In this document: one piece after another, positions 7,603 through 63,295 of the stretch
Numbering within the stretch: position 1 is the stretch's first letter
How the letters are laid out: each line of letters begins with the position of its first letter
Assembly (NCBI GenBank): GCA_951406725.2
Contig: OX597817.1
Location: 77,624,001-77,688,000, forward strand
Source of the DNA: Octopus vulgaris
Lineage: Eukaryota
Reading direction: 5' to 3'
DNA length: 64,000 nucleotides
Notes under the pieces: generated by a model
The model's database searches: none
What the model was told of the DNA's origin: nothing
What the model saw: the letters and a program-made list of their open reading frames with translations, nothing else
Made by a program: the position numbers and the translations under genes

Positions 7603-8444
7603 CTCCCACTTTGTGTTTACCTGGTAATGGTAGCTAATAATGGTATTTAACTATGCAAAACATATACCAAGGAAAAAAGTGTATCTGCCTTTTAAGGTTT
7701 TAGAAGGAAGTGAGCAAAAACAATAAAGCGAGAGAGTATGATATTGGCCTGTATTTGTCTCACCGTAGGCACAAGCAATAGTTATTTGACCAAGCGATTT
7801 GCTCTTTGTTGATGGAAATCGATGTAAAAGCCCCATACATACAGACATACAAACACACAAGCGCACGCGTGCACACACACAAGCAAACACTTGTGTGTGT
7901 GTACGTCCGTTACTGTGTGTATGCTTCAAAATATTGAATATGTTCTTATGTACGAAAATAAATACATCTTCAGATATCCAGGGCTCAGTTCTCAAACATA
8001 TTGCTAAACTCTTGTGTTTTATTCATAAATCAGTTTAATAACTACAATTAACATTTATCTAGATGGCCATATTTTCGCGTGTGTTATCGAAACAGCTGTA
8101 GAAAAAAATGAAATTTTTGAAAATATCAACATGATCGCTTGTTTTCGCGTGGGTTAGCGAAACAACTGTAGATAAAATGAAATTTTAAAAAATAGCAACA
8201 TAATCGTTTGTTTTTTCTTTTTCTTTATACTTTTAAAGTAAAAGAAGAGGGATTCAGAATCTGGGTAAGGACCTTAGTCTAACCACTACGAGTGATAGGG
8301 AACATATAGAATTGTTTAAGATAAACAATCACACGATACCTCACGCAAAAGATAAATCCTGATTTCACACAACATCCAGAGTATATAATCAAGACAACAT
8401 AAAGAAAAATGATGAATTATACAGATTCAAAACTTTATTGCGGT

Positions 8445-8826
8445 ATTATTACTTCCGCCTTCGCTAAGGCGGAGGTATTCTTTTTAGTTGCATTTGTTTG
8501 TTTGTTTACTTGTTTGACCGTGGACAAGATATCTCAAAAAAACGTTAGATGGATTCGAATGAATCTTTCAAGGATGTTTGGCCTCGTGACTAGCACGAAA
8601 TGATTAGATTTGGGGATCGATACAGAACCAGACAAGGATTCTGGATTACTTTTCCAGATTTTCACTTAATTTTTGTGAGCGGTCGGGTTCATTTTTAGCG
8701 TTCTCGTTTGTGAGAGCAGTTGAGTTTATTTGAGATGTTCTCATTTTAAAAATCATCTCAAGCTAATCGTTGAGAGGACGTTCGTGTTGCCTTGGCGGAA
8801 GCTTCCGCTCTGTGAGTGCTCTTGTA
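8445..8826 (+). mobile_element. HINE/DINE-1-like element, second family member
   Basis: TTATTACTTCCGCC...AAGGCGGAGG start, GTTT microsatellite and CTTGGCGGAAG...GAGTGCTCTTGT end, as in 5651-6059. Confidence 0.6.
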
Positions 8827-9044: not shown

Positions 9045-9074
9045 CATACATACATACATATATATATATATATA

Positions 9075-9270
9075 AAGTTAATCCAAACAAGAAAGCAAAA
9101 AAAAACACAACAACGCGAGGACGTGGAACAAATATAGTATTATTGGACGCTCAGGAAAGAAGGAAAGGAGGAGGGTTTAACGTTTCGAGCGGAGCTCTTC
9201 GTCGGAAACATAGGAGAAGGAAAGATCTAGAGAAGAGAAGACGGAGGAAAAAAATCCCCAACGGTACACA
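9075..9270 (-). mobile_element. Short hammerhead-bearing repeat (family H1) next to (TA)n
   Basis: Homologous to 25690-25887, 36765-36880 and 58070-58165; motif at 9175-9209. Confidence 0.7.
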
Positions 9271-25580: not shown

Positions 25581-25882
25581 TAAGAGAGTGGTCACTATAT
25601 TGCTCACTCTAGCACCAGTTAATCCAAAAGGTTTCAACCACGAAAATACATGCTTACCATGAAAGTCAGTACGATTGTTAGCTCACACCGCGTGTGTATC
25701 GTTGGCGATTTTCTATCTCCGTCTTCCCTTTCTTGGACTTTTCCTTTTTATATGTTTCTGACGTAGAGCTCCGCTCGAAACGTTAGATCCTCCTTCTTTC
25801 TTTCCTTCCCTGAGTGTCCAATAACACTATACTTGCTCCACGTTCTCGCGTTGTTGTGTTTTCTCTTTGTTCATGTTTGGAT

Positions 25883-25887
<5 letters not shown>
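25575..25887 (+). mobile_element. Hammerhead-bearing repeat family H1 between (TA)n tracts
   Basis: Motif GTTT-CTGACGT-A-GAGC-TCC-GCTC-GAAACGTT-AGAT at 25754-25788. Confidence 0.7.
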
Positions 25888-25928
<41 letters not shown>

Positions 25929-29706: not shown

Positions 29707-29910
29707 GTTTGGATGATAGATCGCCATGATAGATCGGTAGCCACTACACACATTTTTTTCTCTCCTTGTTTCTTTCTGTGTTCCTTTCTGTGGAAGAGCG
29801 TACGCTCGAAACGTAAAAGACTTTTTCAATTCCCGAGCGTTTTACTAATACATCTGTTTGTTTTCTACACCACCTGTCTTTGTCTTTTGTTTTTTCATGA
29901 ATCGTTCCCC
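29705..29910 (+). mobile_element. Hammerhead-like repeat family H2 in (TA)n
   Basis: Homologous to 62375-62570; motif CTTT-CTGTGGA-A-GAGCGTACGCTC-GAAACGTA-AAAG at 29784-29819, core degenerate. Confidence 0.65.
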
Positions 29911-31064
29911 TATATATATATATATAGAGAGAGAGAGGGGGAGAGAGGGAGGTTACGTGTGAATCCAGTGAGTCTTTCCCCTGACACCGCTTTAAAACAA
30001 ATGGTGCCTTTGTTTATATCCCATCGCATTAGCTGTCCAATATTCAGATATCGACAAGATAAATATCAGGCTTAAAATTAACAATAAGGGATCGTTATAC
30101 TCAACCGCAAAATCCCTTTAAGGCGGTTCTCCATTATGGACGCCATCCAATGAGTGAAACAAGTAAACGAGTATATTTATCCCCCTACTCTTTTCACCTG
30201 ATAGCTATAACTTTGATTGTCATTGAGACTAAATATTAACCTTGCTGAAGACTGTGTCGATGGATTTAATTGCTTGGATACTATTGTTATATTTTAGCTG
30301 CAGTTTAGCGTCAGAGTTTAAAAAAAAGCTTCAGAAATTTATTTTTGTCAGAATGATTGTTTGTGTGTGTGCATGTCTATGTATGTATGTATGTATGTAT
30401 GTATGTATGTATGTATGTATGTATGTATGTATGTATGTATGCATGTATGTATGTATGTATGTATGTATGTATATATGTATGTATGTATGCACGTATGTAA
30501 TTATGTATGTATGTATGTACATATGTAATTATGTATGTATGTATGCATGCATGTTTGTATATATAGATGTGTGTGTGTGTGTGTGTGTGTGCGCGTGTGT
30601 ACGTATATATGGTATGAATTGCTTGAGAGAGAGAAGTCAGCCAGCTCGACCAAACACCTCATTAAGATTATGCTTGAAAATTCTTAATAAATGATAAATT
30701 CAAAGAAAGAAAATGCCGAAATTATCTATCAGCAAGCTCCTTAACAGCTCCTTGGCAGTAGTGATCATTGCGATAACAAGAAGCTCATTGCTACGCTGGA
30801 AGAAAATTCTTTTGAAGTTTAACCAAGCTGAACGCTCTTTTAATGACGTTTTGATGGTGAAGTGCAGCTGTTTAAAAAAAAAACAAAAAAAAACAAATGG
30901 CTTACGATTGTGGCCGGGCACTGTTTTAACAAAGAATAAGCTAAGAAAGTTTGCCAAGACTACACCTTGGCTTCGACGATAGGCTGGTGCCATTTTTTGA
31001 CATTGTGGGTGGTAGGTAGGATGAACTCGCCACCCAATTTCTTGTAGCATATTTGACTGTAGTC

Positions 31065-31710: not shown

Positions 31711-32359
31711 GAGGATCTTTTCCTTTTGAACGACAGATGTCAACACAATTTCTAGTTAACTAAACACTTTTAAACTTCGTATACTGGTAGAATGTGTTTA
31801 TAAAACATCATTTTCTCTTGGTTTTATTGAGAAAATTCTATAGTTTGTAAGATATTTCGTCTGAAAATCCGAGCATTTCGGCAATTTTAACCAATCGATT
31901 ACCTCCATTCAACTAAAATCATTTGCTGCGTCTAAAACTGAGACAACATCCTGTAGCTAACCCTAAACCTCCTCCCTAACCCTAACACTAACCCTGATTT
32001 TTTTTTCTTAATTGTTAAATTAATTTAATTCCGTTGCTTTTGTTTTTTTTACACGTGTAACAATTAAATTAATTTAACAATTAAGAAAAAAAATTTAGGG
32101 TTAGGGTTAGGGGGGAGGTTTAGGGTTAGTTACTGGATGTTGTCTCAGTTTTAGACGCAGCAAATGATTTTAGCTCAAAAGAGAGCATAGGATTGGTTAA
32201 AATTTGAAAAATTAAACTACGTTAAACAAACAAATTACAATTTTCTCAAGAAAGCCAAGAGAAAAAAATGTTTTATTTTGACACATTCTACCAGTATACG
32301 AAGTTTTAAAGTGTTTAGTTAACTAGAAATTGTCTGCCGTTCAAAAGGAAAAGATCCTC
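31711..32359. mobile_element. Long fold-back MITE with TTAGGG-like repeats, nested in a SINE A copy (about 31585-32595)
   Basis: Ends GAGGATCTTTTCCTTTTGAACG / CGTTCAAAAGGAAAAGATCCTC; arms pair imperfectly over about 300 bp; CCCTAA runs at about 31958-31995 and TTAGGG runs at about 32095-32128. Confidence 0.8.
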
Positions 32360-35726: not shown

Positions 35727-36150
35727 AGGTGTAAAAGTGACTGTATGGTGAGTAGCTTGCTTATGAACCATATAGTTCTGGGTCCAGTCCCACTGCGTGG
35801 CACCTTGGGCAAGTAGTGTCTTCTACTGTAGCCTCGGGCCAACCAAAACCTTGTGAGTGGATTCGGTCGACAGAAACCGAAAGAAGCCCGTCGTATATAT
35901 GTATATATATGTGTGTGTGTGTGTGTATGTGTGTATATGTTTGTGTGTCTGTGTTTGTCCTCCCCAATATCGCTTGACAACCGATGCTGGTGTGTTTACG
36001 TCCCCGTCACTTAACGGTTCAGCAAAAGAGACCGATAGAATAAGTACTAGGCTTACAAAGAATAAGTCCTGGGGTCGATTTGTTCGACTAAGGGCGGTGC
36101 TCCAGCATGGCCACAGTTAAATGACTGAAACAAATAAAAGAGTAAAAAGA

Positions 36151-36151
<1 letters not shown>
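35727..36151 (+). mobile_element. SINE family A
   Basis: Head-to-tail homology on +. Confidence 0.85.
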
Positions 36152-36188
<37 letters not shown>

Positions 36189-36779
36189 TTTTTCTTTTAT
36201 TCGCTTATTCTTTTATTTGTTTCAGTCATCTGACTGCGGCCACGCTGGAGCGCCACCTTTTGTCAAATAAATCGACCCCAGGACTTTGTAATCCCAGTAC
36301 TTATTGTATCGGTCTCTTTTGCCGAACCGCCAATTTACGGTAAACACAACAGCATCGGTTGTTAAGCGATGGTGGTGGGGGTGACATTATATATATAATG
36401 GCTGTATGGTAAGACGCTTGCTTCCCAACCATATGGATCTGGGTTCAGTCCCAATCTGCGGCACCTTGGGCAAATGTCTTCTATTATAGTCTCGGGCCGA
36501 CCAAAGCCTTGTGAGTGGATTTGATAGGCAGAAACTGGAAGAAACCCGTCGTATAAATGTATATATATTTGTATATATTTATGTGTGTGTGTTTGTGTTT
36601 GCGTGGCTAGGTGGCAAAAAACTTGATTCTGAGCCACATGGTTCTGAGTTCAGTCACACTGCATGGTACTTTGGGCAGGTGATTTCTGCTATAGCCACGG
36701 GCAGACTAAAGCTTTGTGAGTGGATTTGGTAGGCGGAAATTGAAAGAAACCCGTCATATATATAAAGAAAAGGAAGAGG

Positions 36780-36814
36780 ATTTGACGTTTCGAGCGGAGC
36801 TCTTCATCAGAAAT
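36780..36814 (-). ncRNA. Minimal type I hammerhead ribozyme motif (family H1)
   Basis: ATTT-CTGATGA-A-GAGC(TCC)GCTC-GAAA-CG-TC^AAAT: intact core, GUC site, palindromic ACGT stem III. Confidence 0.7.
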
Positions 36815-37098
36815 ATAGAAAGAGTCCAAAGAAGGGAAGACGGAGAAAGAAAATCGCTAACGATACACACGCAGTCACATATATGCATCTATGTGTGTTT
36901 CTTTGTGTCTATGTAATCCACCACCACCACCGCAGCTTGACAACTGGTGTTGGTGTGTTTACGTCTCTGTAACCTAGCGGTTCGGTAAGAGGGACCGATA
37001 GAATAAGTACCCAGCTCAGCAAAATATATGTAATGGAGTCGATTCATTCGACTGAATATAGATATAAATATAAATATAAATATATATAAATATATATA

Positions 37099-37482
<384 letters not shown>

Positions 37483-58011: not shown

Positions 58012-58162
58012 CATACATACATACATACATACACATGTGTGTGTACATATATATATATATATATATATAGTTAATCCAAACATGAAAACACAAGGAGAAA
58101 ACACAACAACGCGAGGATGTGGAACAAATATAGTATTATTGGATGCTCAGGAAAGAAGGAAA

Positions 58163-58201
<39 letters not shown>

Positions 58202-62374: not shown

Positions 62375-62674
<300 letters not shown>

Positions 62675-63068: not shown

Positions 63069-63295
63069 CTTTATTTTAAGCAGCAGAAAATTCAACAAAA
63101 TCTGTAACTCTGAGTTTCTCGTTGCCGTTCATCAGACAGTTTTTGCTAGAAAAAACTGTCTGATGAACGGCAACGAGAAACTCAGAGTAACAGATTTTGT
63201 TGAATTTTCTGCTGCTTAAAATAAAGCATATTACTCTACCACTGGTATTTGAGTACTCTTTTTCCACCTTGTTTCACATTTATGTGTTTACTCCG

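What the first reader, a model, noticed from the sequence alone, without database searches (positions are those of the whole stretch)
36780..36814. Compensatory changes in hammerhead stem I across H1 and H2 copies
Stem I pairs are ATTT/AAAT (36780), GTTT/AAAC (9175), GTTT/AGAT with G-U wobbles (25754) and CTTT/AAAG (29784, 62441). Stem II is GAGC/GCTC with different loops in four of the five copies, and the site varies among GUC, GUU and GUA, all allowed NUH triplets. This is evidence from within the window that structure, not sequence, is under constraint. Only the 36780 copy has a fully intact core.
Basis: seen in the sequence. Interest (0 to 1): 0.7.

Follow-up and report, generated by a model that had tools for sequence, protein, structure and literature searches.

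The report
Penelope hammerheads with altered catalytic cores
These five stretches are leftover tail ends of two abundant Penelope-type jumping genes that carry a known kind of hammerhead RNA motif; the claimed compensating changes are real but touch one base pair and are not statistically significant, while the commonest lineages carry changed core letters that would be predicted to slow self-cutting.

Summary
The letters are as reported. The five motifs are minimal type I hammerheads (extra A after A9, palindromic ACGU stem III) at the 3' ends of two related Penelope-like element (PLE) lineages, H1 and H2; at least 30,515 copies match exactly genome-wide. The covariation claim is weak. Both-sided change is confined to the terminal stem I pair (C-G 66, G-C 61, A-U 28, G-U 16 of 181 copies), arose about twice, and is not significant (rank 21 of 10,878 column pairs, E about 50). 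One subfamily breaks stem I, and stem II never covaries. The GUC site at 36780 is a rare variant of a class that is half GUG. Two of the 'broken' cores are inherited lineage states: U4C dominates the youngest H1 burst, and A6U is fixed in H2 (14,101 copies against 158). H2 still conserves the rest of the core while N7 takes all four bases, as a retained hammerhead fold predicts. Best reading: source elements keep the fold, with weak dimer-dependent cutting at most; genomic copies decay. Cleavage is untested. An earlier scan note (e1-8672774) reports a similar changed-core family elsewhere in this genome.

The parts
36780..36814 (-). Minimal type I hammerhead motif, H1 A-U subfamily; canonical core, extra A after A9, GUC site; predicted cut between 36784 and 36783
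   Evidence: cut site inferred from hammerhead numbering
36764..36882 (-). H1 element copy, cut short about 15 nt after stem I; 96% identical to L003 over 119 nt
9175..9209 (-). Hammerhead motif, dominant H1 subfamily: G-C terminal pair, U4C core, GUU
9067..9270 (-). H1 element copy ending in (TA)n
25754..25788 (+). Hammerhead motif, H1 G-U subfamily, with private A9U and A1.2G changes
25687..25896 (+). H1 element copy ending in (TA)n
29784..29819 (+). Hammerhead motif, H2: C-G terminal pair, A6U core, GUA; loop 2 carries a private change
29716..29926 (+). H2 element copy between (TA)n tracts
62441..62476 (+). Decayed H2 hammerhead motif: core and stem II damaged by private changes
62384..62588 (+). 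H2 element copy ending in (TA)n
58060..58165 (-). H1 3' remnant truncated downstream of the hammerhead (no motif)

Best explanation
The five motifs are minimal type I hammerheads in the last ~200 bases of two related Penelope-like retrotransposon lineages, present as truncated copies beside (TA)n, and selection likely acts only on the source elements, which likely keep the hammerhead fold and are predicted to cut slowly, if at all, as dimers. Shown: the motif, the copy numbers, the link to RT/GIY-YIG frames, the subfamily states, and covariation limited to one pair. Inferred: two motifs on a tandem transcript would pair through their ACGU palindromes to complete stem III. The terminal stem I pair tolerates any pairing (G-C to G-U to A-U in H1; C-G in H2). 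U4C (youngest H1) and A6U (all H2) would lower the rate without losing the fold. The element's own RT and endonuclease would copy from the 3' end into (TA)n, usually stopping early. The genomic copies, 36780 included, are likely inert and decaying.
For: Architecture matches the PLE min-HHR consensus of Cervera and de la Pena 2014. The 3' ends run colinearly into PLE frames: H2 in L151 (partial tandem plus inverted end), H1 in L171, L160, L175. The L151 frame resembles clusters with HTH_animal, GIY-YIG and RVT_1 (score 0.94-0.96). (TA)n follows 146 of 181 copies against 15% of random windows. Motif identity between H1 and H2 is 26 of 30 against 12 of 30 and 37 of 67 in flanks, with proteins 64% identical and no blastn match between the UTR parts compared. 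In H2, 0 of 12 constrained columns not fixed by my search pattern are polymorphic against 23 of 76 flank columns (Fisher p 0.02), while N7 is the most variable of 112 columns. U6 and four-state N7 recur in contigs of four runs from four coded organisms. U4C keeps enough activity in vivo for a viroid, and A6C gives low but detectable activity (PMC3088659 passages).
Against: No cleavage data. H1 shows no such core-versus-flank contrast (3 of 12 against 15 of 74, p 0.78), and its N7 is nearly fixed (C in 70 of 73). One H1 subfamily has U4C plus a U-U mismatch in stem I and a recent-looking member pair (98% over 786 nt). The A-U class is half GUG. Single mutants of the CUGA turn had low activity in a saturation screen (PMC9901934 passage). 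The double-hammerhead fold is 17-27 kcal/mol above the best dimer fold in ViennaRNA, which omits core tertiary energy. Stem II shows no covariation. Pfam gave no hit for the L151 frame. Most of the 181 copies were picked by similarity or exact pattern, not at random.
Confidence: 0.6

Rival explanations
1. The motif has become a non-catalytic signal: the PLE protein (or a host factor) recognises this sequence or stem-loop near the 3' end, and cutting no longer matters.
For: The largest and youngest bursts carry U4C or A6U. Sequence is conserved rather than covarying. GUG and U-U subfamilies spread. H1 monomers are predicted to fold into a rod in which the core pairs with the stem III strand. 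HHR function in EN+ PLEs is stated as unclear (PMC8557442).
Against: H2 keeps C3, U4, G5 fixed and lets exactly N7 vary, with N17 nearly always A or U. That is the hammerhead pattern (N7 free per the CUGANGA consensus). H2 cannot form the H1 rod.
Confidence: 0.27
2. One reading: the window shows fully active ribozymes under structural selection, proven by compensatory stem I changes, with 36780 the one working copy.
For: All major subfamilies keep the terminal pair paired. A-C (110) is at the level of random transitions, about 1.7% of copies with C at 1.4, while A-U (217) is a real sub-lineage.
Against: About two independent events at one pair; E 51-59; 35 of 500 shuffles in the five-copy test. 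A U-U subfamily exists, and 4-7% of H2 depth in three runs has an unpaired U at 1.4. 36780 is single, 3'-truncated and not special: roughly 2,000 H1 copies have a canonical core, paired stem I and NUH (estimate).
Confidence: 0.08
3. The hammerhead is a relic under no selection; conservation reflects few source elements and recent bursts.
For: Core changes became fixed in both lineages. H1 core columns are as polymorphic as flanks.
Against: The motif is an island of identity (26 of 30) between lineages whose proteins differ at 36% of sites and whose UTRs do not align. The H2 core is invariant across subfamilies.
Confidence: 0.05

Closest known systems
Minimal type I hammerheads (min-HHR) of metazoan Penelope-like elements (Cervera and de la Pena 2014, PMC4209133; read: main text parts 1-2 of 4, supplement file 2 part 2 and term search; supplement file 1 not available)
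   Same: Type I order, 4-bp helix I, extra nucleotide between 9 and 10.1, G10.1-C11.1, palindromic stem III, U-rich 5' flank, mostly single truncated copies, families with compensatory changes.
   Different: Helix II is only 4 bp. Their consensus is CUGANGAH and NUH with U3-A8 as the core variant; here the main lineages carry U4C or A6U, and one class is half GUG.
Neptune/Nematis-type EN+ PLEs (Craig et al. 2021, PMC8557442; passages only)
   Same: C-terminal GIY-YIG after RT, CX2-5CxxC linker, 5' truncation, partial tandem and inverted ends, microsatellite targets, 3' HHR.
   Different: Clade not placed by phylogeny here; only the C-terminal 360 aa were examined; long low-complexity 3' UTRs (about 0.7-2.9 kb).
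Natural hammerhead core variants (Perreault et al. 2011, PMC3088659; section 8 and passages)
   Same: U4C and a position-6 change (A6C) are known, with reduced activity.
   Different: The term A6U does not occur in its main text; their variants are rare, here they head lineages with thousands of copies.
Small PLE-associated hammerhead variants that cleave as dimers (Lunse, Weinberg and Breaker, RNA Biol 14:1499; not held; seen only as a citation and a summary passage in PMC6765202)
   Same: Short palindromic stem III, dimer cleavage, PLE association.
   Different: Unknown: I could not check whether it lists U4C, A6U or these families.
Animal non-LTR retrozymes (bioRxiv 10.64898/2026.07.22.740005, part 1 of 5 read; PMC7229834, listing only)
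   Same: Non-coding, type I HHR, PLE-related.
   Different: Retrozymes are tandem arrays of short HHR units; these are dispersed single ends that extend into PLE coding sequence in longer copies.

Membership tests
PLE minimal type I hammerhead | Type I order with helix I open and helix II closed | tested here: met
   a descriptor gave 116 hits in 1.34 Mb and 0 in reversed sequence
PLE minimal type I hammerhead | Extra nucleotide between A9 and G10.1, and G10.1-C11.1 pair | tested here: met
   G-C in 177 of 181 (these columns are largely fixed by my search pattern); also seen in flank-found copies
PLE minimal type I hammerhead | Palindromic minimal stem III | tested here: met
   A-C-G-U: CG in 164 of 181, remainder mostly CpG decay
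PLE minimal type I hammerhead | Canonical CUGANGA core | tested here: inconclusive
   Met at 36780 and in the G-U, A-U and older H3 groups; not met in dominant H1 (U4C in 81 of first 100) or in H2 (14,101 U6 against 158 A6)
PLE minimal type I hammerhead | NUH cleavage triplet | tested here: inconclusive
   Met in all five window copies and most subfamilies; GUG in 50 of first 100 A-U class copies
PLE minimal type I hammerhead | Self-cleavage as a dimer | not testable with these tools
   No raw RNA reads were offered; needs an in vitro assay
EN+ Penelope-like element | RT followed by C-terminal GIY-YIG endonuclease upstream of the HHR | tested here: met
   L151, L171, L160, L175; none in the window itself; Pfam scan negative
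EN+ Penelope-like element | 5' truncation, partial tandem and inverted ends, microsatellite targets | tested here: met
   L151 layout; (TA)n after 146 of 181 copies
Neptune clade | CX2-5CxxC linker between RT and EN | tested here: met
   C-x4-C-x2-C in L151 and L171; shared with Nematis per PMC8557442
Neptune clade | Placement in an RT phylogeny | not tested
   no tree of RT was built
Non-LTR retrozyme | Tandem short units each with a complete HHR | tested here: not met
   The five window copies are single and kilobases apart; the tandem at L151 contains coding sequence
Structure supported by covariation | Significant covarying pairs after correcting for phylogeny | tested here: not met
   E 51-59 for the only covarying pair

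The most novel reading that the evidence does not exclude
A natural A6U hammerhead core is kept by selection in a Penelope lineage with over 14,000 exact copies, and U4C in its sister's youngest burst. Successful PLEs would then select for a slowed or non-cutting hammerhead fold. The canonical, U4C, A6U, GUG and U-U forms in one genome give a ready allelic series to test whether PLE hammerheads must cut.
Probability: 0.4. Interest if true: 0.6.

Novelty: new variant of a known kind. Interest (0 to 1): 0.37.

Why it matters
The finding as posed is ordinary: PLE hammerhead families with compensatory changes were described in 2014, and here the signal is one pair and not significant. What adds something is that the most abundant lineages amplified with U4C or A6U cores while keeping the rest of the motif. 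Whether hammerheads help, hinder or merely ride on PLEs is stated as open (PMC8557442), and these natural variants with known copy numbers and relative ages make it testable. Searches that require CUGANGA would miss most of the roughly 100,000 copies estimated here (22 hits in 600 kb of evenly spaced DNA, some partial).

Tried and rejected
Rfam scan: no hammerhead family among the 150 best of 359 matches shown, which were microsatellite and hairpin noise. Pfam on the PLE frame: no hit. Expression and cut-site mapping: no RNA holder listed, contigs only; two searches were used only for variant letters. A-to-I editing as the source of G-U wobbles: rejected, A>G 37 of 3,375 is below T>C 98 of 5,836. 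Split-core reading using the downstream CUGA: rejected by eye, since no stem I partner precedes it. Loop 2 pseudoknot with upstream sequence: considered by eye, not consistent across subfamilies, not tested further. H1 link to the endonuclease-like fragment upstream in L024/L152: not supported; the real link came from L171 and L175. Lunse et al. not held. Searches for A6U or U4C hammerheads and for octopus hammerheads listed nothing describing these families; figures and unseen supplements may hold them. Rows dropped: 195 HMM hits, 184 parsed, 3 removed for an indel or truncation, 181 analysed; 29 similarity-selected rows were removed for the H1 entropy ranks. Earlier-finding look-ups by sequence and by variant words returned nothing.

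Full report
Observation. The 35 bases at 36780-36814 read on the minus strand as stem I (AUUU), CUGAUGA, an extra A, stem II GAGC-UCC-GCUC, GAAA, CG, UC, and AAAU. On these five alone, 1 of 8 pairs shows a both-sided change, and 35 of 500 shuffles reach the score, with a control that ignores relatedness.

What the copies are. The window lies in a 2.8-Gb genome. Exact 21- and 22-base patterns for stem II plus GAAACGU give 12,556 (H1) and 17,959 (H2) matches, with 0 for reversed controls. Evenly spaced DNA held 22 hits in 600 kb, some partial, which extrapolates to about 100,000. Most copies are about 200 bases long, and (TA)n follows 146 of 181 (15% of random windows). Longer copies run upstream into coding sequence. 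L151 holds an RT C-terminal half, a C-x4-C-x2-C linker and a GIY-YIG domain, then the H2 motif, (TA)n, an inverted end and a second truncated unit. ESM Atlas neighbours carry HTH_animal, GIY-YIG and RVT_1; Pfam gave no hit. H1 copies in L171, L160 and L175 link to a related frame, 64% identical over 360 aa. L003, a close relative of 36780, shares 626 bases with L175. The window itself has no PLE frame. So H1 and H2 are 3' ends of two related EN+ PLE lineages of Neptune or Nematis type, mostly 5'-truncated.

Covariation test. I aligned 181 copies (195 hits, 184 parsed, 3 dropped). The sample is mixed: 30 loci picked by similarity to 36780, most others by exact pattern, about 20 from evenly spaced DNA and the window. 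Only the terminal stem I pair varies on both sides: C-G 66, G-C 61, A-U 28, G-U 16, unpaired 10. The other three pairs are U-A in 172, 163 and 167 copies, and ten copies form a subfamily with U-U at pair 1.2/2.2. Stem II has no both-sided change. With a G-test, APC correction and a tree-based null modelled on R-scape (my own script), the terminal pair ranks 21 of 10,878 with E 51 or 59 depending on the tree. On the flank-only tree the changes are one C-to-U, one G-to-A inside that clade, a small extra C-to-U, and the H1/H2 split. Whole-genome counts in H1 are G-C 6,452, G-U 1,078, A-U 217 and A-C 110. A-C is at the level of random transitions, and A-U is a real sub-lineage, so the path G-C to G-U to A-U is plausible. 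It is still one path. My rough estimate of keeping the pair through both events by chance, given transition bias, is about 0.1 (inference). Private changes at the U-A pairs keep pairing 16 times and break it 15 times. In H2, 4-7% of laid depth in three runs has U at 1.4, which cannot pair with C.

Cleavage triplet and 36780. In the A-U class the first 100 of 217 copies read GUG 50, GUU 45, GUC 3, GUA 2 (by eye). GUG falls outside the NUH consensus. The 36780 copy is a rare GUC variant, single, and cut short 15 bases after stem I. From the listed fractions, about 2,000 H1 copies have a canonical core, paired stem I and NUH (estimate).

The cores. CCGACGA (U4C) is in 81 of the first 100 G-C class copies (by eye), and this subfamily is the least diverged in H1 (median 3.6% against 7.3% for G-U and 22% for the six older H3 copies, which are mostly canonical). 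Some U4 copies are probably CpG reversions (inference). In H2, CUGUNGA has 14,101 exact matches against 158 for CUGANGA with a laxer pattern. Copies found by their 3' flank alone in untargeted DNA show the same states: 8 of 10 readable H1 copies U4C and 6 of 7 readable H2 copies U6. Contigs from runs of four coded organisms show U4C as majority, and no change above 3% at U6 with all four bases at N7; contigs drop rare variants.

Evidence for constraint. H1 and H2 majorities agree at 26 of 30 motif positions, against 12 of 30 and 37 of 67 in flanks, and the UTR parts compared do not align. In H2, none of 12 constrained columns outside my search pattern is polymorphic against 23 of 76 flank columns (p 0.02), and N7 is the most variable of 112 columns. 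H1 gives no such contrast (3 of 12 against 15 of 74, p 0.78); its N7 is C in 70 of 73, though N17 ranks 3 of 116. So the constraint is real, it acts on source elements, and it is seen mainly as conserved sequence with a free N7, not as covariation.

Mechanism. Inferred from PMC4209133: such motifs lack a stable stem III and cut weakly as dimers. ViennaRNA places the double-hammerhead fold 17-27 kcal/mol above the best dimer fold, without core tertiary energy. Literature passages say U4C lowers activity but suffices for a viroid in vivo, A6C gives under 0.1 per minute, and CUGA mutants are generally poor. Cleavage was not and could not be tested.

Novelty. The kind is known, including families with compensatory changes. 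I found no description of these families or of a natural A6U core in my searches, but Lunse et al. could not be read and may list them. I had recorded my reading before seeing it, did not check its DNA, and do not count it as support. Earlier notes call the genome octopus-like; I did not test that.

Noticed in passing
window 9140-9150 (-), 29832-29840 (+), and about 25-30 nt after the cut site in most copies: A CCYGAGCG motif is conserved in H1, H2 and H3. It repeats the 5' strand of stem II and could pair with its 3' strand (downstream GAGC in 75 of 91 H1 and 51 of 60 H2 copies; median predicted probability 0.29 and 0.12). Possible off-switch; no covariation available to test it.
   Followed up: partly
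H2 position N7 (window 29792): N7 is more variable than any flank column, not just as variable. Unexplained.
   Followed up: partly
H1 5' ends, e.g. window 36882, 9270, 25687: Many H1 copies begin at nearly the same point about 70 nt before the core. This may be a preferred truncation point or a non-autonomous sub-family.
   Followed up: no
L180 (minus strand, about 8260-8500) and L185:9221-9400: Two unrelated hammerhead families with canonical cores and different stems, each with further copies in the fetched DNA. The L180 motif lies on the strand opposite a more distant PLE-like frame.
   Followed up: partly
window 37079-37326: Near-perfect inverted repeat (94%); each arm has a CCGAAGA ... 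GAAACUC arrangement resembling hammerhead pieces.
   Followed up: no
window 63070-63225: Palindrome whose arms carry CUGAUGA, a short hairpin and GAAACUC; may belong to the re-wired hammerhead families named in earlier scan notes.
   Followed up: no
window 31915-32171 and 35960-36300: Long inverted repeats; the first includes TTAGGG-like units.
   Followed up: no
L152:6682-7896 (-): Open 404-aa frame that looks like a CAF1/CNOT7-type deadenylase (recalled resemblance, not tested).
   Followed up: no
L069/L070 and L174: H2 copies joined head to head or cut inside the motif next to (TA)n and an opposite-strand copy.
   Followed up: no
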